DNA of 34,070 nt from Candidatus Lindowiibacteriota bacterium (GCA_023249255.1 JAHFCY010000001.1:20058-54127), one strand, 5' to 3'; positions 430 through 21,151 are shown, numbered from the stretch's first letter. The notes: generated from the sequence alone by a model not told the origin. Made by a program: numbers and translations.

Positions 430-1548
430 ATGTCCAGCGAAGCTATGGACGAGACCATGAAATTCGATTCGATCGTCATCGGCGGCGGGCCGGCCGGGCT
501 GGCTTGCGCCATCCGCTTATCCCGAATGGGCATGAAGGTTCTCCTTGCCGAACGGCGCCACCTTCCGCAGGAAAAATGCTGCGGCGAATTTCTCCATCCG
601 ACAGCAGTGCGTGAACTTGAAGCGTTGCTGGGAAAGACGCCGGCCGGACAGCCTATCGACCGTGTGAGAATTTCGGCGCTGGACATTTCACGCGAATTTG
701 ATTTATCGACACCAGCGATGGCAGTGGAACGACGCGCGCTCTCAAAAGCGCTGATCGAAGCCGCAACGCGCACCGGCGTCCAAATTTCCGAGAATATGGA
801 AGCGGATATTCTCCGCGCCGATCCGAACAGGTTCGAAATCCGGATCGGAACCAACAGCGCTCATTCCGAAAGGCTGATTTTAGCCGAGGGCGCATCAGCG
901 GCGATGACGAACAAAATCAAAGTGGCCAAACCGGTATCCCGTGTCGTCTACGGATTTTCGGCCCGGATGGAGGCGGTGTTTGACCGCAAGGTTGCATTGG
1001 CTGCCGTTTCAGGCGGGTATGCGGGATTGTGCGATCTCGGAGGCAATTGCGTTAACATCGCAGGTCTTCTGCTGCCTGCCGCGTATCGCCGACTGGCTCC
1101 GAACCAGCCGGGATTTGGCGCGAGATTGCTGGCCGAAATTCCGGTGTGGGCCAAAATTGTCCAGCCCGATCTGATTGCCACGAAATTTCAAGCGCCTGTT
1201 TGCGCCGATGAAATACGCGGGGACGCACTGCCGAACGGCGCATTTGTGGTCGGAGACTGCGGCGGGATGAGCGAAACCGCATTTGGCGACGGAATCGCCC
1301 GGGCATTCGTTCATGCAAGGATTCTCGATGAAGTCCTTCATCTGCATTCCGGAAATTCAAAAAATGTTGCGCGGGAATACGTCCGACGGATCAAAAACTC
1401 TTTGCATCGTCCGAATCGGTTTCTACTTAGGCTTGCGGGAGAATTACTGCGTTCGCCGATTTTGGCGAGGACATCTCTTCGTGTCGCCGGATCCTGGATT
1501 CACTCCATGGTCAGGCGTGCGACGGAACCTGCCGGGGTTCCCTCTTAA
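430..1548 (+). CDS. FAD-dependent oxidoreductase (geranylgeranyl-reductase-like flavoprotein), substrate unknown
   Basis: ORF 421..1548. It has an N-terminal dinucleotide-binding motif, KFDSIVIGGGPAGLACAIRLSRMGMKVLLAER, and a later GD motif (FVVGDCGG). Candidate starts are TTG421, ATG430, ATG445 and ATG457, and the exact start is unresolved. Confidence 0.65.
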   Translation: MSSEAMDETMKFDSIVIGGGPAGLACAIRLSRMGMKVLLAERRHLPQEKCCGEFLHPTAVRELEALLGKTPAGQPIDRVRISALDISREFDLSTPAMAVERRALSKALIEAATRTGVQISENMEADILRADPNRFEIRIGTNSAHSERLILAEGASAAMTNKIKVAKPVSRVVYGFSARMEAVFDRKVALAAVSGGYAGLCDLGGNCVNIAGLLLPAAYRRLAPNQPGFGARLLAEIPVWAKIVQPDLIATKFQAPVCADEIRGDALPNGAFVVGDCGGMSETAFGDGIARAFVHARILDEVLHLHSGNSKNVAREYVRRIKNSLHRPNRFLLRLAGELLRSPILARTSLRVAGSWIHSMVRRATEPAGVPS

Positions 1549-2948
1549 GAACCTGTATCGGCCAGATTGTGGCCGCACCACGGTTTGGGGCACAGTTCGC
1601 GTTCTTTCATCGACACGCAGTTGAAGTCCGTGCGCTGGTCGATCCCGGCCGCCAAGGCGCCCGCGTACAACCGGATCCAGAAATTTGCGCGCGTAGCGGC
1701 ATCCAGATGCGTCCAGTCTTCCGACCAGCGATGGCTCACGCGTTCGTATTTGGATCGGATGAGACCGGCAATGTGTTTTGGATGCCAGCCTTTGCGACTC
1801 AGATATCGCGCAATATTTTGCAGATGGGTTGGCTGAAGGACGTTGGGGTTGGGCCATGAAAGCGGTTGAGCGATGCAGGGCGGGAGACGGCGAAAGTCCA
1901 GCGCATCGTATGTTCGAGGCCATGTCGCCGGGTCATCGTGGTCGACGGAATCAAATTCGCGGTGAAACACGGCTAACGGATCGGCTTCGTAATCCCGGAT
2001 CACCTTTTCGAAACTTTCCGCCGCATCGGGCAGACGGCAATCGCCTTCCCGCGCCATCTCCGACGACGCAAAAAAATTTCTGCGGGCGGCCATCAGATCT
2101 TCAAGACTATGGCAGGCGCGGCGGGGCAGGGTGATCTGGACGGGAATGTTTCGGGCAATGTCCCGACCGACCTTGTAGATTTGGATTTTGTGTTTCTGGT
2201 GCGTCGAGAACGGACAGCGGATATCACGCATGGTGATCGGATCGCAGAACGCGGACAGGTCCAGCGAGATCGCCTCGCGGGCGCCGTTCCCGGTCCGGCC
2301 GGTAACGATGTCGGAAAACACAACCGGCACGGGGCTTTCGGCGCCAACCGCGCGCAGAATGTCATGACAGATGAACTCCATCACGCGCCCAAGCCCGTCG
2401 AACGCGTGGCCATGCCGCAGCGACACGCGGCGGTGGCGGTGAGCCGTTATCGCATTGTATTTCGCCGCGAGCGTGTCCGACACCTGTCCAAGATTTTCGA
2501 GTGAATTGTCGGCCGGCGTGTCAGCCGGAATTTTCCATGCGAAATGGTAGCCCTGACCGGTCATAAAGGTCAGATGCGGGATGTTCCAGCGGGACAGTCT
2601 GTCCTGAATGATTTGATAGAGCGGTTCGAGTTTTTTAAAACAAGCCAGCGGGTTGTAATAGATTTCTCCGGCGTAATCGATGTTGAAGTATTCCACATCA
2701 AGAACCGCCACCGTCGATTCCTTGTCCCACAGGGACCGAAAGACATCGAGGCCGTGGTCGAGGATCCAGTGAAATCCAGAGATATCCGCAGACGTGAATT
2801 CTTTCCGATGCATCGTTTTGAGATACGCGCCATAGCCGACGAGGTATTCTGCCGTGAAGGACAACGGTTCGGCGCTCGCGCCGCCGCAGTACTCGGCGAT
2901 CCGCTCCCGCACATACGGCGTCGCGTAGTACTCGATGGGGTTGTTCAC
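1545..2948 (-). CDS. Hypothetical protein with an AEP (archaeo-eukaryotic primase)-like catalytic domain fused to a PriL-CTD-like 4-Cys domain (inferred from motifs)
   Basis: 467-aa ORF with a GTG start at 2948 that overlaps the upstream gene's stop (GTGA). Motif I-like is VAVLDVEYFN (DxE). Motif II-like is FMTGQGYHFAW (sGxGxH). Motif III-like is ISLDLSAFCDPITMRDIRCPFSTHQKHK (D...R.P.S.H.K). The C-terminal part has LPPCIAQPL...THLQNIARYLSRKGWHPKHIAGLI, then Cys444, Cys453 and Cys458, resembling the FPPC(M/I) Fe-S domain of PriL. That this is a real CDS is near certain; the confidence value refers to the functional call. Confidence 0.45.
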   Translation of the reverse strand: MNNPIEYYATPYVRERIAEYCGGASAEPLSFTAEYLVGYGAYLKTMHRKEFTSADISGFHWILDHGLDVFRSLWDKESTVAVLDVEYFNIDYAGEIYYNPLACFKKLEPLYQIIQDRLSRWNIPHLTFMTGQGYHFAWKIPADTPADNSLENLGQVSDTLAAKYNAITAHRHRRVSLRHGHAFDGLGRVMEFICHDILRAVGAESPVPVVFSDIVTGRTGNGAREAISLDLSAFCDPITMRDIRCPFSTHQKHKIQIYKVGRDIARNIPVQITLPRRACHSLEDLMAARRNFFASSEMAREGDCRLPDAAESFEKVIRDYEADPLAVFHREFDSVDHDDPATWPRTYDALDFRRLPPCIAQPLSWPNPNVLQPTHLQNIARYLSRKGWHPKHIAGLIRSKYERVSHRWSEDWTHLDAATRANFWIRLYAGALAAGIDQRTDFNCVSMKERELCPKPWCGHNLADTGS

Positions 2949-3664
2949 GACGATTCCAGCAAAAATACCGTCGGGCGATCGCGCAGATCCGGCGGCGGAC
3001 AGGCGCGCCAGGCAGCCATAGAATTTGTCCGAATTTCTTCGGATGGGGCGGTCAGATCGGACGCGACGCAGAACAGCGTTTTTTCATTGAGACAGGCGAG
3101 GGCGGCGGCGAATACGTCGCTGTTTCGATAGGGTGTTTCGATCCAGATGTGCGAGCGCGAGAATCGCCGGGAATCCGACTCCATATTTTTCAACTCTCGG
3201 CGGCGCTCGGCGGCGTCCCGTGACAAATATCCGTGAAAAACAAATCGCTGGCCGTTCAGGCCGGATCCCATCAACGACAACAACACGGCCGATGGACCGG
3301 CCAGAGGTTTCACGCGAACGCCGCGCGCGTGCGCAAGCCGCACAAGGGCCGCGCCGGGATCCGCCACAGCCGGACAGCCTGCGTCCGAAATCAATCCCCA
3401 CGATTCGCCGCGCTCAATCGGTTCGATCAGATGTTCAATCTCGGACGGCCGGGTATGTTCGTTCAGCAGGCGCAACGCCGCAGATTCGGATAAATGTGGA
3501 CCCTTCATCTTTTTCAAAAACGCCGACGCCATTTTTCGGCTTTCGCCAATGACACCGTCCAGCGTCGAAACGACGGACCGAATTGCATCGTCAGGATCTG
3601 TCGAGGCTTCGGCGGCAATCGGCGTCGGGATCAGATACAGGATTCCTGAAGTTTGAGATTCCAC
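2945..3664 (-). CDS. SAM-dependent methyltransferase, RsmI-like (tetrapyrrole-methylase fold)
   Basis: This is the C-terminal 240 aa of ORF 2945..4006. GILYLIPTPI, LISDAGCPAVADPG, KPLAGPSAVLLSLMGSGL, FHGYL and IWIETPYR parallel the E. coli RsmI blocks LYIVPTPIGN, VSDAGTPLINDPG, PLPGPCAAITALSAAGL, YEGFLP and IFYESTHR. I placed the start at GTG 3664 because homology begins there and the longer ORF would run through the divergent flagellin promoter and start. The start remains uncertain, with no clear SD. Confidence 0.7.
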   Translation of the reverse strand: MESQTSGILYLIPTPIAAEASTDPDDAIRSVVSTLDGVIGESRKMASAFLKKMKGPHLSESAALRLLNEHTRPSEIEHLIEPIERGESWGLISDAGCPAVADPGAALVRLAHARGVRVKPLAGPSAVLLSLMGSGLNGQRFVFHGYLSRDAAERRRELKNMESDSRRFSRSHIWIETPYRNSDVFAAALACLNEKTLFCVASDLTAPSEEIRTNSMAAWRACPPPDLRDRPTVFLLESS

Positions 3665-3720: not shown

Positions 3721-3748
3721 TCAAGCTTCGGCGCAAATCGGCCGATAT
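3721..3748 (+). promoter_or_regulatory. Sigma-28 (FliA)-type promoter for flagellin 1
   Basis: The sequence is TCAAGCTT-N12-GCCGATAT, against the consensus TAAAGTTT-N11/12-GCCGATAA. It lies about 140 nt upstream of the flagellin ATG. It has the same N12 spacing as the two other sites in this window. Confidence 0.55.
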
Positions 3749-3890
3749 GGTGTGTGAGACGCAGTTCAACTGCAGCCGTGACAACTTGACAGTCCCGGGG
3801 GGCTTCGATACACTCTGTCCACATCGTTCGACGGAGGCGGGAGGCCCCCAAAGGAATTGGGGGACAGAAACCAGTGGGAGGGAACCCAGA

Positions 3891-4706
3891 ATGGCTCTCA
3901 GAGTGAACGACGATTCAAATATTTTATCCGCACTGCGGCAATCCCAGATCAACCAATCCGACATCGGCAAGCGACTGTCGTCCATCGCGTCGGGGTTACG
4001 GATCAATCAGACATCCGATGACGCGGCGGGACTGGCAGTCGCCGAATCTCTGTCATCGCAAAGCCGTGGGCTTGACGTTGCCAGCCGAAACATACAGGAC
4101 TTCATGTCATTGACACAGACCGCCGAAGCCGGCCTGTCCGGAATCCAGAACATGTCTCAACGCATCAACGAACTTGCTCTACAGGCTTCAACCGGCACGC
4201 TGACATCCGAGGATCGACAGCTGATCCAGGGCGAGATCAGCCAGATTTCGCAAGAGATTGACCGGCAGGCGGGGTCCACCGAGTTTAACGGCACGCCGCT
4301 TTTGAACGGTTCCTTTTCCGGTTCGACGCAAATCGGCGCCAATCCCGGCAACGTGTTCACGCTGAATCTTTCGGCCACGACCGCCGCCGCTCTTGGGCTT
4401 ACCGGCATCGATGTTTCAACGCAGGCCGGCGCGCAGAACGCGGTCAGCGTTGCGCAGGGCGCCGTGAATTCCGTCGCCACGGAGCGCGCATCCATCGGTT
4501 CGACGATGAACCGTCTCCAGCTCGCCGCGGACACCGCCCAGGTAGCGCAGGAAAACACGCTGGCCTCCGAATCGGTGATTCGCGACTCCGACATGGCACT
4601 GGAAATGATCGGTCTTGCCGCGGCGCAAATCCGCAGCAACGCCGGGGTTGCGGCCCTCGCCCAGGGCAACATCAACCGTGAGAACGCCGCCCGGCTTCTG
4701 GGCTGA
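3891..4706 (+). CDS. fliC: Flagellin, minimal form (D0/D1 only, 271 aa)
   Basis: The internal start ATG3891 of ORF 3747..4706 is preceded by the SD GGGAGGGAA (3876-3884). The N-terminus reads KRLSSIASGLRINQTSDDAAGLAVAESL. The middle has STEFNGTPLLNG...TQIGANPGNVFTLNL...LGLTGIDV. The C-terminus reads IGSTMNRLQ...SVIRDSDMALEMIGLAAAQIRSNAGVAALAQGN...LLG. There is no outer-domain insert. Confidence 0.9.
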   Translation: MALRVNDDSNILSALRQSQINQSDIGKRLSSIASGLRINQTSDDAAGLAVAESLSSQSRGLDVASRNIQDFMSLTQTAEAGLSGIQNMSQRINELALQASTGTLTSEDRQLIQGEISQISQEIDRQAGSTEFNGTPLLNGSFSGSTQIGANPGNVFTLNLSATTAAALGLTGIDVSTQAGAQNAVSVAQGAVNSVATERASIGSTMNRLQLAADTAQVAQENTLASESVIRDSDMALEMIGLAAAQIRSNAGVAALAQGNINRENAARLLG

Positions 4707-4718
4707 CCTTTTGCCGTC

Positions 4719-5186
4719 ATGAAACTCGAGCGCGTTGCTCTGCTTCTGTTACGCCTTTACGTCGGATATTTATTTCTGACGGCCGGATGGCAAAAATGGA
4801 CGGCGGACCCATCATTTACAACCGGTGAAGCCCTCGGAACTTTCCTGAACAAATGTCTGACGGATGCCACGCCGGGCACCATCAGCGCCGCGTTAATCCA
4901 GAGTTATTATCTGCCGCACGTCAAACTTCTTGCGTGGTTTGTTGTCCTCGGTGAACTCGGAGTTGGTGCAGCGCTTCTGACCGGAACGGCGACCCGCATT
5001 GCCTGCGCCGCCGGCATAGTGATGAACTCGAGTTTTTTTCTCGCGACCAATGGAAGCTTTGCCTCGTTCGACAACAACGCTTTTTTTATTCTGATCCAGC
5101 TTGTTCTGCTCACCACCGCCGCAGGCCGGTTTTTCGGCGTTGACTATTTTTTAAGCAAAAAATTCTCCAACAATTATCTCTGGTAA
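4719..5186 (+). CDS. DoxX-family integral membrane protein
   Basis: 155 aa with four predicted TM segments. The N-terminus LLLLRLYVGYLFLTAGWQKW is typical of DoxX. It starts only 12 nt after the flagellin stop. Confidence 0.6.
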   Translation: MKLERVALLLLRLYVGYLFLTAGWQKWTADPSFTTGEALGTFLNKCLTDATPGTISAALIQSYYLPHVKLLAWFVVLGELGVGAALLTGTATRIACAAGIVMNSSFFLATNGSFASFDNNAFFILIQLVLLTTAAGRFFGVDYFLSKKFSNNYLW

Positions 5187-5199
5187 ACGGGAGCCGGAC

Positions 5200-5823
5200 G
5201 TGACCGTGACGATCGATCGCGGCGCCGCCCTCAAGGAATGGGCGGCTGTGGTCAAAGCTCTCGAATCCGGGACACAAGTCCTGATCCTGCGAAAGGGCGG
5301 AATTCGCGAGGAGGGGTTTTCGGCCGAAGCCGCCGCCTTCTTTTTTTATCCCACCGGATTTCATCAGACAACGGACAAACTTCGGTCGGAACACATCCAT
5401 TTCATGGAAGAGGCGATGGCAGACCGGCCGCCGGAAGGGCGGGTGCGCATCCGGTCGATGGCGCAGACCGCCGGAGTGTTTGCCGTGCCGGACGAGGACA
5501 AACTTGCGTCCCTTGCCGGCGAATACGTCTACACGGTCGACGAAATGAAAAAACGCCACGAATTCAGGCCGGGTGACTCCCTGACCGCGCTGGCCGTCCG
5601 GGTTTATATACTGAAACAGCCGGCGGAGATTCTGCTGAAAACAAATTATGGCGGTTGCGTCTCGTGGGTTCATCTAGAAGATCCGGTGTCAACGGAGGGC
5701 GCGAAACCCGTCCTCTCCGACGACGCATTCGATCAACGGCTCCGCCGCATCCGTGACATCCTTTCACCCCGCTCACATCCATCCATGGACTCCGCCGGGG
5801 TCCCTCCATCCAACCGGTCATAG
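5200..5823 (+). CDS. DUF1802-like protein
   Basis: GTG start. ALKEWAAVVKALESGTQVLILRKGGIREEGF...FFFYPTGFHQ matches my recollection of the DUF1802 N-terminal signature. The C-terminal tail is low-complexity. Confidence 0.5.
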   Translation: MTVTIDRGAALKEWAAVVKALESGTQVLILRKGGIREEGFSAEAAAFFFYPTGFHQTTDKLRSEHIHFMEEAMADRPPEGRVRIRSMAQTAGVFAVPDEDKLASLAGEYVYTVDEMKKRHEFRPGDSLTALAVRVYILKQPAEILLKTNYGGCVSWVHLEDPVSTEGAKPVLSDDAFDQRLRRIRDILSPRSHPSMDSAGVPPSNRS

Positions 5824-20206: not shown

Positions 20207-21151
20207 TCAATCGCCCACCGGTCCGTCGCCAAGAAATTTTTCAGCCAGACGCTTGAGTTCGAGTTTGTTGAGAATCCGCCCAAGCTTGTCGCGGTCAAAC
20301 CGCGCCGGATCAAACGGCACGGGAATCACGTCGACTTCAAGGTCGAGCCGCAGCCGAACCAGGTCCCGGCTTAAAAACGCCTCCGATCGCTGCGCCAGCA
20401 ACGCCTTCGCCGCCACCTTCGGCAGGCGAGTGAGGTTGTCATAAATCTCCTCGAGCGTCGCGTACTTGCCCAGAATTTTGACCGCGGTTTTTTCGCCGAT
20501 TCCTTTCACGCCCGGCACATTGTCCACCGCATCACCCACCAGCGCGAAAAAATCGACCATCCGATCGGGCGGCAGTCCGTATTTCTCCTTGAGTGACTTC
20601 GGATCCATCAGGACAAAGTCGTCCGGACGGCCGGACGGTCTCAAGAGCCGGATGTCGTCCGCCAGAATCTGGAAAAAATCCTTGTCGTTCGACGCGATCA
20701 CGACCCGCCGGCCCTGTCCGGCGAACGCCGTCGCAGCCGATCCGATTGCGTCGTCCGCCTCAACGCCATGAATGGCGACCTGTGGAATAGACAGCGCCGA
20801 CAGCGCCTCCTCAATCAACGGTACCTGCGATTTCAAATCCTCCGGCGTCTCCGGACGGTTCGCTTTGTAGTCGGCATAGGCGGCCAGACGCTCCTGGGGT
20901 CCGCCCCGGTCGAAAAAAACGACGAATTCCGGCGCGGCGCCGTATTTTTTTTCCACGAACGAGATGATCTTCGGAAAAATGGACAAAAATCCGTGAACAG
21001 CCGACGTCGGCTGGCCGTCCTGATTTCGAAAATCGGGCAGGGCGTAATACGCCCGGAAAATCCATGCATAGGCGTCCACGAGAACGACCGGCTCGTCTTG
21101 AAAGAGTTTGTCCATGCCCGCCACCTGATCTTTTGCGGGGACGGCCGTCAA
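20207..21151 (-). CDS. Stand-alone 5'-3' exonuclease / flap endonuclease (Pol I N-terminal-domain homologue)
   Basis: Blocks seen are VVLVDAYAWIFRAYYAL, TSAVHGFL, YKANR and SNDKDFFQIL, plus the H3TH block GDAVDNVPGVKGIGEKTAVKIL. At 314 aa it has no polymerase domain. An alternative start is at 21115. Confidence 0.85.
   Translation of the reverse strand: MTAVPAKDQVAGMDKLFQDEPVVLVDAYAWIFRAYYALPDFRNQDGQPTSAVHGFLSIFPKIISFVEKKYGAAPEFVVFFDRGGPQERLAAYADYKANRPETPEDLKSQVPLIEEALSALSIPQVAIHGVEADDAIGSAATAFAGQGRRVVIASNDKDFFQILADDIRLLRPSGRPDDFVLMDPKSLKEKYGLPPDRMVDFFALVGDAVDNVPGVKGIGEKTAVKILGKYATLEEIYDNLTRLPKVAAKALLAQRSEAFLSRDLVRLRLDLEVDVIPVPFDPARFDRDKLGRILNKLELKRLAEKFLGDGPVGD

What the first reader, a model, noticed from the sequence alone, without database searches (positions are those of the whole stretch)
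1545..3664. Bacterial single-chain PriS-like AEP fused to a PriL-like Fe-S domain, coupled to an RsmI-like methyltransferase
Seen in sequence: the 467-aa ORF carries, in the correct order and spacing, the three AEP catalytic motifs. They are LDVEY (D84/E86, the DxE variant also used by PrimPol), GQGYH (H135), and D230...RDIRCPFSTHQK. The C-terminal third has RRLPPCIAQPL...THLQNIARYLSRKGWHPKHIAGLI. This parallels the FPPC(M/I)...HL...FLKGIGL... block of eukaryotic and archaeal PriL. Cys358 is followed ~86 aa later by C444-x8-C453-x4-C458, giving four Cys as in the PriL 4Fe-4S domain. The GTG start overlaps the stop of the upstream tetrapyrrole-methylase-fold methyltransferase (GTGA), implying co-translation. 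No helicase, integrase, Ku/ligase or phage genes are adjacent; the neighbours are a flavoprotein and a flagellin. The context therefore does not look like a mobile element or a LigD/NHEJ locus. Inference: this is an uncharacterised primase-polymerase-type enzyme, possibly acting together with a nucleic-acid methyltransferase. The function is unknown.
Basis: partly seen in the sequence, partly recalled or inferred. Interest (0 to 1): 0.65.

Follow-up and report, generated by a model that had tools for sequence, protein, structure and literature searches.

The report
Undescribed chromosomal bacterial primase-polymerase family
This gene encodes a member of a previously undescribed, chromosome-borne bacterial family of archaeal/eukaryotic-type primase-polymerases with a four-cysteine metal-binding tail; across the family its conserved partner is an endonuclease-IV-like enzyme, not the neighbouring methyltransferase, which points to DNA repair.

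Summary
ORF 1545..2948 (minus strand, 467 aa) carries the quoted motifs and its GTG start overlaps the upstream stop (GTGA, 2945-2948). The residues are not chance: among 97 homologues down to 27% identity, D84, H135 and D230 are kept in 88-96, position 86 is E or D in 95, and the four cysteines in about 95.

An AlphaFold model (pLDDT 90) matches only AEP primase-polymerases in the PDB. LigD-Pol, Prim-PolC and CAPP score better than PriS/Pri1. No Pfam, NCBIfam or PDB sequence model detects the family, so it is a new AEP family.

The PriL-like claim is unproven. Support is the conserved, jointly lost Cys4 site and sub-threshold PF04104 hits in one register. The isolated domain has no significant fold match.

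The methyltransferase coupling is lineage-specific: 3 of 82 loci, in a clade where the whole neighbourhood is collinear. That methyltransferase family is very large and occurs in lineages where the AEP was not found.

The conserved partner is a TIM-barrel protein with all nine Endo IV metal ligands. It is adjacent in 23 loci across at least 5 deep clades and fused in two proteins. No relatives occur in phage, plasmid or viral collections.

Best reading: a repair or repriming primase-polymerase working with an Endo IV-like nuclease. Function is inferred, not shown.

The parts
1545..2948 (-). Gene for the 467-aa AEP-family primase-polymerase-like protein (GTG start at 2948-2946; TAA stop at 1547-1545)
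   Evidence: ORF list. 292 full-length homologues in the word-indexed search and 620 representatives in the exhaustive search. AF2 model pLDDT 90, pTM 0.92. Foldseek ranks 1-36 are all AEP structures.
2124..2948 (-). N-terminal region, residues 1-275: a family-specific N-terminal extension (about residues 1-75) followed by the AEP catalytic core
   Evidence: Secondary structure of the model. Foldseek alignments to LigD-Pol, Prim-PolC and CAPP span 300-366 columns. The domain boundary is my estimate from the model's secondary structure.
2691..2699 (-). Motif I, D84-V-E86 (LDVEY): the two catalytic metal-binding acids
   Evidence: D84 is kept in 94/97. Position 86 is E in 70 and D in 25, so DxE alternates with the canonical AEP DxD. 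Both are kept in 81/82 loci and 17/17 paralogues.
2544..2558 (-). Motif II, G131-Q-G-Y-H135 (TGQGYHF): the nucleotide-binding histidine motif
   Evidence: G133 96/97, H135 88/97. H135 82/82.
2190..2261 (-). Motif III D230 plus the RDIRCPFSTHQKH block (R244, S248, Q251, K252, H253)
   Evidence: D230 96/97, R244 94/97, K252 86/97. R244, F247, S248, Q251, K252 and H253 are invariant in the 37-sequence set.
1548..2123 (-). All-alpha C-terminal domain, residues 276-467, with the conserved LPPC...PN..L.PT..Q...GWHP.HIAGL.RSK block. Possibly a remote PriL-CTD/PriCT-type helper domain
   Evidence: Separate AF2 model pLDDT 86, all helices. PF04104 sub-threshold hits in one register. No significant fold match.
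1875..1877 (-). Cys358, the first ligand of the putative Cys4 metal site (LPPC)
   Evidence: 97/97. Replaced together with the other three Cys in the distant paralogues.
1575..1619 (-). Cys444-x8-Cys453-x4-Cys458, the C-terminal three ligands of the putative metal site
   Evidence: C444 96/97 and C453 96/97. The fourth Cys is present with variable spacing. pLDDT falls to 59-68 here, as expected for a site lacking its cofactor in the model. Coordinates checked.
2945..3664 (-). Upstream 239-aa SAM-dependent methyltransferase of the short RsmI-like (tetrapyrrole-methylase fold) family. Operonic here, but a lineage-specific neighbour
   Evidence: TIGR00096 E 4e-25, below cutoff. Homologues carry PF00590. 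Start confirmed. Present next to the AEP gene in only 3 of 82 loci.
2945..2948 (-). GTGA start/stop overlap between the methyltransferase and the AEP gene
   Evidence: Sequence read directly.

Best explanation
The ORF encodes a member of a compact, previously undescribed, chromosomally encoded bacterial family of AEP-superfamily nucleotidyltransferases (primase-polymerases).

Shown: (1) an AEP catalytic fold; (2) conserved motif I (DxE or DxD), motif II (GxGYH) and motif III (D230), plus an R/S/K block of the kind that binds nucleotide in other AEPs; (3) a fused all-alpha C-terminal domain with four conserved cysteines in a 1+3 arrangement that are lost together in one paralogue lineage, which suggests a single metal site; (4) core-chromosome context with no relatives in phages, plasmids or viral contigs; (5) across the family, a conserved link to a TIM-barrel protein that keeps all nine metal ligands of endonuclease IV. 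That protein is adjacent downstream, adjacent upstream, or fused in one polypeptide.

Inferred: the TIM-barrel enzyme incises at abasic sites or removes 3' blocking groups to leave a 3'-OH. The AEP domain then uses two metals, held by D84, E86 and D230, to fill the gap. Alternatively, with the C-terminal metal domain holding the initiating nucleotide as Pri2-CTD, PriX or the PrimPol zinc finger do, it makes a primer de novo past the lesion. An unlinked ligase seals the nick.

In the window's lineage (closest named relative: Candidatus Lindowbacteria) the gene has come to lie in an operon behind a short RsmI-like methyltransferase. No TIM-barrel gene lies within the 34 kb. That pairing is lineage-specific gene order, not the family's functional partnership.
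For: Fold: AF2 pLDDT 90, pTM 0.92. Foldseek PDB ranks 1-36 are all AEPs, led by LigD-Pol 2r9l (E 8e-4), Prim-PolC 5op0 and CAPP 7p9j (TM 0.6 on the target). BFVD hits are phage and archaeal-virus primases.

Active site: conservation in 37, 82 and 97 sequences, with DxE alternating with DxD.

Metal site: Cys4 kept in about 95 of 97. All four are lost together in the 4 distant paralogues, which still keep the catalytic residues.

Partner: a PF01261 TIM barrel sits at +1 in 23 of 82 loci and lies within 10 kb in 27. It is upstream in Schekmanbacteria and fused in P0153 and P0170. The link spans at least 5 deep clades, including L006/L085, the nearest outgroup of the window's clade. All nine Nfo ligand positions are conserved in 25-26 of 26 partners (Nfo sequence verified as 1qtw). 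The closest solved relative is MJ1311, listed as the predicted Endo IV homologue of M. jannaschii (PMC2770678).

Precedent: in mycobacteria, Endo IV cleans 3' ends of BER gaps that Prim-PolC then fills (PMC5663958). Ancillary domains stabilise the initiating nucleotide in AEP primases (PMC10345425).

Not mobile: no relatives in IMG/VR, PLSDB or INPHARED. Contexts are housekeeping.
Against: No biochemistry exists for any member. The TIM barrel scores best against CbiR phosphodiesterase and sugar epimerases and is far below the Nfo model thresholds, so its substrate is not established as DNA. No ligase, Ku, glycosylase or helicase recurs nearby. One member has an N-terminal CBS pair, which is more typical of metabolic enzymes. 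Only about a third of loci have the TIM barrel within 10 kb, and the window itself has none. The PriL or helper-domain homology of the C-terminal domain is not demonstrated. Whether the metal is Fe-S or Zn cannot be told from sequence.
Confidence: 0.5

Rival explanations
1. One reading: a single-chain PriS-PriL primase that works together with the co-translated RsmI-like methyltransferase on a shared nucleic-acid substrate.
For: The GTGA overlap is real. The pair stays on one contig in all close relatives: L004, L005 and L086, and matching contig lengths for P0001-P0004 against P0277, P0274, P0273 and P0275. PF04104 gives weak hits.
Against: The pair occurs in only 3 of 82 loci, all in one shallow clade where flagellin, DoxX, DUF1802 and the FAD oxidoreductase are also collinear. 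The methyltransferase family has at least 7,900 members at about 50% identity in Betaproteobacteria and Desulfobulbus, where the AEP was not found. Structurally the protein is closer to LigD-Pol, Prim-PolC and CAPP than to PriS. The C-terminal domain does not match PriL by fold search.
Confidence: 0.07
2. A replicative or back-up chromosomal primase that replaces or supplements DnaG in these candidate phyla.
For: High full-length conservation (42-50% identity across phyla) in housekeeping contexts. The AEP-plus-helper-domain architecture is typical of true primases (PMC10345425).
Against: The distribution is sparse and patchy: about 95 of 185,579 species genomes. The abstract of PMC5862659 states that bacteria uniformly use DnaG. 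Fusion to an Endo IV-like nuclease, tandem paralogues and a CBS fusion do not fit a replisome primase. No helicase is linked. I could not test whether DnaG is present in these MAGs; its absence from 1.2 Mb of flanks is uninformative.
Confidence: 0.06
3. A nucleotidyltransferase that does not act in DNA repair. It could act in RNA or tRNA end repair or tailing, or in nucleotidyl transfer to a sugar-phosphate or small molecule, with the TIM barrel serving as a phosphodiesterase or epimerase in that pathway.
For: The TIM barrel's best family scores are CbiR and sugar epimerases. hisS and aspS lie downstream of the pair in one large clade. There is a CBS-pair fusion. The window clade has an rRNA-methyltransferase-like neighbour. 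No ligase or glycosylase is linked.
Against: All nine Endo IV trinuclear-site ligands are kept, whereas epimerases of this fold use only the central four-ligand site (textbook knowledge of the Endo IV and D-tagatose/psicose epimerase structures). All significant structural neighbours are DNA primase-polymerases. The hisS-aspS block is confined to one clade, while the TIM link is broader.
Confidence: 0.2
4. A domesticated or cryptic mobile-element or defence-system AEP, like most bacterial AEPs.
For: Most bacterial AEPs outside LigD are encoded by mobile elements (PMC5862659). The scattered phyletic pattern suggests horizontal transfer.
Against: No relatives in 2.9 M viral contigs, 72,556 plasmids or 50,697 phages. 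No PADLOC hit. No recurrent integrase, helicase or terminase neighbours. GC content is even across the region. Core genes flank the gene.
Confidence: 0.03

Closest known systems
Mycobacterial Prim-PolC and LigD polymerase domain (NHEJ/BER-type bacterial AEPs)
   Same: They are the best structural matches. They are chromosomal bacterial AEPs used in repair. Prim-PolC fills BER gaps whose 3' ends Endo IV has cleaned (PMC5663958), which parallels the AEP-Endo IV-like linkage found here.
   Different: There is no detectable sequence similarity and no match to any AEP Pfam model. No ligase or Ku is linked. This family has a roughly 190-residue Cys4 C-terminal domain and a roughly 75-residue N-terminal extension that those enzymes lack. 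The nuclease link here is genomic or by fusion rather than through a ligase scaffold.
Single-chain PriS-PriL primases (Nanoarchaeum equitans primase; PolpTN2 of Thermococcus plasmid pTN2)
   Same: An AEP catalytic domain is followed in one chain by a helical domain with four cysteines (PMC10250227 and PMC3973330 abstracts). PF04104 is weakly hit on the LPPC block.
   Different: Those are archaeal or plasmid replicative primases with recognisable PriS and PriL sequence similarity. Here neither half reaches any profile threshold, the fold search does not recover PriL-CTD, and the catalytic domain is structurally nearer to LigD-Pol and CAPP than to PriS.
Eukaryotic PrimPol and bacterial CRISPR-associated Prim-Pol (CAPP)
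   Same: The AEP core is followed by a C-terminal metal-binding or accessory domain that assists initiation (PMC10345425). CAPP is among the top structural hits.
   Different: There is no UL52-type C-H-C-C zinc finger pattern. The Cys4 here is a 1+3 arrangement spanning about 100 residues. There is no CRISPR or reverse-transcriptase context.
Endonuclease IV (Nfo) / MJ1311-type AP_endonuc_2 TIM barrels (for the family's partner protein; not present in this window)
   Same: PF01261 fold and all nine Nfo metal-ligand positions. The closest solved relative, MJ1311, is listed as a predicted archaeal Endo IV homologue.
   Different: Scores are far below the Nfo family thresholds, and CbiR or epimerase models score higher. 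No activity is known.

Membership tests
AEP (archaeo-eukaryotic primase / Prim-Pol) superfamily | AEP catalytic fold | tested here: met
   AF2 model pLDDT 90. Foldseek PDB ranks 1-36 are all AEP structures, with probability 0.98-1.00 for the top 20.
AEP (archaeo-eukaryotic primase / Prim-Pol) superfamily | Motif I with two acidic residues (DxD or DxE) on a beta-strand | tested here: met
   D84 is kept in 94/97. Position 86 is E in 70 and D in 25. It lies on strand 78-89 of the model.
AEP (archaeo-eukaryotic primase / Prim-Pol) superfamily | Motif II sGxGxH and motif III acidic residue | tested here: met
   G133 96/97, H135 88/97, D230 96/97.
AEP (archaeo-eukaryotic primase / Prim-Pol) superfamily | Match to a curated AEP sequence family (Pfam, NCBIfam or PHROGs) | tested here: not met
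   No AEP family is hit by any of 37 members even at E<=10. Profiles of 37 and 97 sequences find no AEP in the PDB. It belongs to the superfamily by fold and motifs only, and is a new family.
AEP (archaeo-eukaryotic primase / Prim-Pol) superfamily | Template-dependent primase or polymerase activity | not testable with these tools
   Needs biochemistry.
PriS (AEP-proper clade, primase small subunit) | Closer to PriS/Pri1 than to other AEP clades | tested here: not met
   Pri1 hits have E 0.07-0.6 and TM about 0.3, and P. abyssi PriS has E 0.55. LigD-Pol, Prim-PolC and CAPP have E about 1e-3 to 1e-2 and TM 0.5-0.6.
PriS (AEP-proper clade, primase small subunit) | Zinc-binding motif within the catalytic subunit (from knowledge of PriS/Pri1 structures) | tested here: not met
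   There is no conserved Cys/His cluster in residues 1-275. Only C21 is partly conserved (57/97).
PriL C-terminal Fe-S domain (Pfam PF04104) | Profile match at or above the gathering score | tested here: not met
   3 of 37 members hit it. The two I located score 17.9 and 15.4 bits against a 22.4 cutoff, but share a register (protein about 295/334-409 onto profile 42/87-157). The window's own protein gives no hit.
PriL C-terminal Fe-S domain (Pfam PF04104) | Four conserved cysteines able to hold one cluster | tested here: met
   C358 97/97, C444 96/97, C453 96/97, and the fourth Cys in about 95/97 with variable spacing. All are lost together in the distant paralogues. The spacing (86, 9, 5) differs from human p58 (C287, C367, C384, C424; from knowledge).
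PriL C-terminal Fe-S domain (Pfam PF04104) | Fold similarity to p58C, PriL-CTD or PriX | tested here: not met
   The isolated domain model (pLDDT 86) has no PDB match with E<1. The best is the RepB' primase at E 5.7. hhalign against verified p58C aligns only 24 columns, P 0.027. Foldseek is weak on all-alpha domains, so this does not exclude remote homology.
PriL C-terminal Fe-S domain (Pfam PF04104) | Bound [4Fe-4S] cluster | not testable with these tools
   Needs UV-vis, EPR or metal analysis.
RsmI (16S rRNA C1402 2'-O-methyltransferase, TIGR00096), for the upstream gene | Equivalog score | tested here: not met
   88.6 bits against a cutoff of 167.9. It belongs to a shorter (about 236-250 aa) RsmI-like 'SAM-dependent methyltransferase' family whose members mostly carry PF00590. 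The window's own protein misses PF00590 in my scans.
LigD/Ku NHEJ or LigC-Prim-PolC operons | ATP-dependent ligase and/or Ku encoded next to the AEP | tested here: not met
   No such gene is among the recurrent neighbour clusters of 82 loci or in the window.
Mobile-element AEPs (PrimPol-PV1 supergroup and similar) | Mobile-element context, helicase or PriCT/HTH fusions, and presence in phages or plasmids | tested here: not met
   No hits in IMG/VR, PLSDB or INPHARED. No PriCT, helicase or HTH Pfam hits. Neighbours are housekeeping genes.
Endonuclease IV (Nfo), for the family's TIM-barrel partner | Nine ligands of the trinuclear metal site | tested here: met
   Equivalents of H69 (offset by one alignment column), H109, E145, D179, H182, H216, D229, H231 and E261 are present in 25-26 of 26 partners.
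Endonuclease IV (Nfo), for the family's TIM-barrel partner | Nfo family model threshold | tested here: not met
   TIGR00587 scores 19.7 bits against 129.65. CbiR and epimerase models score higher, all sub-threshold.

The most novel reading that the evidence does not exclude
This is a third kind of cellular bacterial AEP system, alongside LigD and LigC/Prim-PolC and unlike the mobile-element-borne AEPs. It would be a true primase-polymerase whose fused C-terminal domain is a remote PriL-CTD/PriCT homologue carrying a [4Fe-4S] cluster, working as a two-enzyme (sometimes one-polypeptide) module with an Endo IV-type nuclease to incise at lesions and then reprime or fill. That would place a PriL-type Fe-S helper module in non-mobile bacterial genes, where it has been considered absent.
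Probability: 0.25. Interest if true: 0.8.

Novelty: new variant of a known kind. Interest (0 to 1): 0.62.

Why it matters
Bacterial AEPs are currently seen as either LigD/LigC-type repair polymerases or cargo of mobile elements. PriL-type helper domains are seen as a hallmark of archaeal and eukaryotic replicative primases (PMC5862659). Here is a well-conserved family, with 620 representative clusters, that fits neither picture. It is chromosomal, not detected by any curated sequence model, and carries a conserved four-cysteine helper-like domain. Gene order and gene fusion tie it to an Endo IV-type nuclease. If the inferred function holds, it defines a new excision or repriming repair module in several uncultured, mostly anaerobic phyla. 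It also offers a compact single-chain AEP for studying how metal-cluster domains assist primer initiation. The natural fusion proteins make the hypothesis directly testable.

Tried and rejected
1. Sequence-family placement. Pfam, NCBIfam, PHROGs and PADLOC on the protein and on all 37 aligned members gave no significant hit. phmmer and profile searches against PDB sequences with 1, 25, 37 and 97 sequences found nothing.

2. PriL test. The Foldseek search of the isolated C-terminal domain was negative. hhalign against verified human p58C aligned only the LPPC/FPPC stretch. I ran no further search on p58C, because its top hits would be shallow vertebrate orthologues and unlikely to be decisive.

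3. DnaG presence. A regex and a tblastn with E. coli DnaG over 1.2 Mb of flanks found none. About 0.4 hits were expected by chance, so this is uninformative.

4. Methyltransferase as conserved partner: rejected.

5. hisS-aspS as functional partners: rejected as clade-restricted synteny.

6. Ligase, Ku, helicase or integrase partners: none among the recurrent clusters.

7. Viral, plasmid or phage origin: no relatives.

8. Rfam and tRNA scans of the window: nothing.

9. Literature searches for this family: nothing found.

Full report
**1. Observation**

The window has a 467-codon ORF at 1545..2948 on the minus strand.

The upstream ORF ends ...TCG TCG TGA and the AEP ORF begins GTG AAC AAC, so the two share GTGA at 2945-2948. 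Homologue N-termini align with this GTG.

Homologues begin 4-7 residues before the conserved GILYLIPTP. The gene is therefore 2945..3664 and 239 aa, and the automatic call of 279 aa is probably too long.

The flanking genes are a convergent FAD-dependent oxidoreductase of the geranylgeranyl-reductase type and a divergent flagellin.

**2. Is it more than chance?**

The protein has 292 full-length relatives in the word-indexed search. The exhaustive search found 620 representatives of 50%-identity clusters. All are about 440-520 aa, all are unnamed, and none carries a Pfam domain.

- In 82 independent loci, D84, E86, H135 and D230 are kept in 81-82 and each of the four cysteines in 80-82.
- In a 97-sequence alignment reaching 27% identity, D84 is 94/97, H135 88/97, D230 96/97, and C358, C444 and C453 are 96-97/97.
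- The fourth Cys is present in all but about two, with spacing x3-x6.
- Position 86 alternates between E (70) and D (25), so the family uses both the PrimPol-like DxE and the canonical AEP DxD. That is the behaviour expected of a catalytic metal ligand.

**3. Fold**

An AlphaFold2 model built on the 37-sequence alignment is confident (pLDDT 90, pTM 0.92). Foldseek against the PDB returns only AEP enzymes in ranks 1-36:

- M. tuberculosis LigD polymerase domain (E 8e-4)
- M. smegmatis Prim-PolC
- CRISPR-associated Prim-Pol (TM 0.6 on the target)
- then human Pri1, cyanophage S-2L PrimPol, poxvirus E5 and P. abyssi PriS at weaker scores

The viral library returns phage and archaeal-virus primases. 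The AEP assignment is therefore supported by fold and by motif conservation. 'PriS-like' specifically is not supported, because the NHEJ/BER-type and CAPP enzymes are the nearer structures.

At sequence level the family is isolated. No Pfam, NCBIfam, PHROG or PADLOC model, and no PDB sequence, is matched by single sequences or by profiles of 37 or 97 sequences. It is a new family within a known superfamily.

**4. The C-terminal domain**

Residues 276-467 are all-helical. The 1+3 arrangement of four conserved cysteines behaves as one unit. Four distant tandem paralogues keep the catalytic residues but have lost every one of these cysteines.

Evidence for homology to PriL-CTD is weak but not nil.

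- For: PF04104 (DNA_primase_lrg) is hit by 3 of 37 members. It is below threshold, at 17.9 and 15.4 bits against 22.4.
- Against: a separate model of the domain (pLDDT 86) has no significant PDB neighbour. The best is the RepB' primase at E 5.7.
- Against: profile searches against PDB sequences find no PriL.
- Against: hhalign against human p58C aligns only 24 columns around LPPC/FPPC, with P 0.027 against 0.41 for a reversed control. I recalled the p58C sequence from memory and verified it as identical to 3L9Q.

I therefore treat 'Cys4 metal-binding helper-like domain' as supported. I treat 'PriL-like Fe-S domain' as unproven. Whether the metal is Fe-S or Zn cannot be decided in silico.

**5. 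The methyltransferase**

The overlap makes translational coupling plausible in this organism. As a family-wide partnership the claim fails.

- tblastn of the methyltransferase against 82 loci finds it only in the window and its two closest relatives, L004 (70%) and L005 (Candidatus Lindowbacteria, 67%).
- In that clade the whole neighbourhood is collinear: DUF1802, DoxX, flagellin, MTase, AEP, FAD oxidoreductase.
- Contig lengths show the pair stays together in the other close relatives.
- The methyltransferase belongs to a very large family of short RsmI-like SAM-dependent methyltransferases, with at least 7,900 hits. About 50%-identical members occur in Betaproteobacteria and Desulfobulbus, lineages in which the AEP family was not found.
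- It scores 88.6 bits on TIGR00096 against a cutoff of 167.9, so it is RsmI-like but not a confirmed RsmI.

**6. The conserved partner**

I clustered the neighbours of 82 loci. A 281-aa gene lies immediately downstream in 23 of them, and tblastn finds it within 10 kb in 27. It is a PF01261 AP_endonuc_2 TIM barrel (E 7e-41).

- In a Schekmanbacteria genome a related TIM barrel lies immediately upstream instead.
- Two family representatives, P0153 (747 aa) and P0170 (724 aa), are natural fusions of the AEP-like protein to this TIM barrel.
- On a neighbour-joining tree the association appears in at least five deep clades. One of them is L006/L085, the nearest outgroup of the window's clade.

Downstream, upstream and fused arrangements across deep clades argue for a functional link rather than inherited gene order.

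The partner keeps equivalents of all nine ligands of the trinuclear metal site of E. coli endonuclease IV in 25-26 of 26 sequences. My recalled Nfo sequence was verified as 1QTW. Its closest solved relative is the uncharacterised MJ1311 (E 1.5e-22), which PMC2770678 lists as the predicted Endo IV homologue of M. jannaschii.

It is nevertheless far below the Nfo model thresholds, and CbiR phosphodiesterase and sugar-epimerase models score higher. Its substrate is therefore inferred, not shown. The window has no such gene within its 34 kb.

**7. Context and mobility**

- No relatives exist in 2.9 M viral contigs, 72,556 plasmids or 50,697 phage genomes.
- The rest of the window is core chromosome: QueG, MMPL transporter, aminotransferase, TatAC, threonine-synthase-like enzyme, homoserine dehydrogenase, 5'-3' exonuclease, CoaBC, GatA/GatB.
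- No ligase, Ku, helicase or integrase recurs near the gene in any lineage.
- The family occurs in about 95 of 185,579 species-level genomes, all uncultured MAGs. They include Lindowbacteria, Elusimicrobiota/Endomicrobiia, Hydrogenedentota, Auribacterota and other PVC-group bacteria, Schekmanbacteria, Wallbacteria, and some MAGs labelled Clostridia, Ignavibacteria or Chlamydiota.

**8. Mechanism**

Shown: an AEP fold with a complete catalytic signature, a conserved Cys4 helical domain, and a conserved genomic and fusion link to an Endo IV-type metallo-TIM barrel.

Inferred: the TIM-barrel enzyme incises at abasic sites or removes 3' blocks. The AEP then fills the gap or reprimes. The C-terminal metal domain plays the initiating-nucleotide-stabilising role that Pri2-CTD, PriX, the CAPP CTD or the PrimPol zinc finger play in other AEPs (PMC10345425).

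The closest experimental precedent is the mycobacterial pathway in which Endo IV cleans BER gaps that Prim-PolC fills (PMC5663958). I put about 0.5 on this reading.

The main rival, at about 0.2, is a non-DNA role in RNA or small-molecule nucleotidyl transfer. It is prompted by the TIM barrel's epimerase/CbiR scores, a CBS-pair fusion (P0195) and the lack of linked ligase or glycosylase genes.

**9. Novelty**

I found no description of this family in the searchable literature. It is a new variant of a known kind: a new AEP family with a new domain combination and a new partner. It sits in cellular rather than mobile DNA, which is unusual for bacterial AEPs (PMC5862659).

Noticed in passing
L009, L010, L011, L016, L024, L030, L034, L036, L038, L039, L042, L044, L050 (about 40-44% identity) and L078, L079, L081, L082 (about 26-29% identity); e.g. 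L084:8547-10043: 17 of 82 loci carry a full-length paralogue of the AEP-like gene immediately downstream on the same strand. The 13 closer paralogues form an old monophyletic clade and keep all catalytic and Cys residues. The 4 distant ones keep the catalytic residues but lack all four cysteines. This suggests heterodimers in some lineages. None of these loci has the TIM barrel adjacent.
   Followed up: partly
P0153 (747 aa), P0170 (724 aa), P0195 (612 aa); proteins from the exhaustive search, not in the window: There are natural fusions of the AEP-like protein to an AP_endonuc_2 TIM barrel (P0153, P0170) and to an N-terminal CBS pair (P0195). The CBS fusion hints at regulation by adenine nucleotides and is unexplained.
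   Followed up: partly
window 2945-3664 (-): The upstream methyltransferase matches NCBIfam's RsmI model (E 4e-25) but gives no Pfam TP_methylase (PF00590) hit in my scans, although most of its 50%-identical homologues carry that domain. Within the window's clade it is only 50-59% identical, while the adjacent AEP is 67-74%, so it evolves faster than its neighbour.
   Followed up: partly
window 3747-4706 (+) and 9681-11117 (+): There are two flagellin genes 5 kb apart. The second (478 aa) has weak VWA-domain hits between the flagellin N and C regions in the precomputed annotation.
   Followed up: no
window 4719-5186 (+) and 5200-5823 (+): A DoxX/DoxD membrane protein and a DUF1802 protein form a tight pair that is conserved next to the flagellin-MTase-AEP block in the related loci L004, L005 and L086.
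   Followed up: no
window 20207-21151 (-): A stand-alone 5'-3' exonuclease (FEN/Pol I N-terminal type, 314 aa) sits in a housekeeping stretch. It is a DNA-repair or replication gene but lies 17 kb from the finding.
   Followed up: no
L040 (JBFMFP010000095.1, 3.8 kb): A 46%-identical copy sits on a short contig binned as 'Nanoarchaeota archaeon'. Every other member is bacterial, so this is probably a mis-binned contig rather than an archaeal member.
   Followed up: no
L084:12565-13758 (-): A PD-(D/E)XK nuclease (PF12705) lies two genes beyond the tandem AEP pair in one paralogue-carrying locus. I did not check whether it recurs.
   Followed up: no
L008:9210-10631 and eight related Elusimicrobia loci: In one Elusimicrobia clade the AEP gene sits in a conserved block: DUF374, AEP, LpoB-like lipoprotein, then a 473-aa lipoprotein-like protein with no Pfam hit. 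These are envelope-related neighbours with no obvious link to nucleic acids.
   Followed up: no
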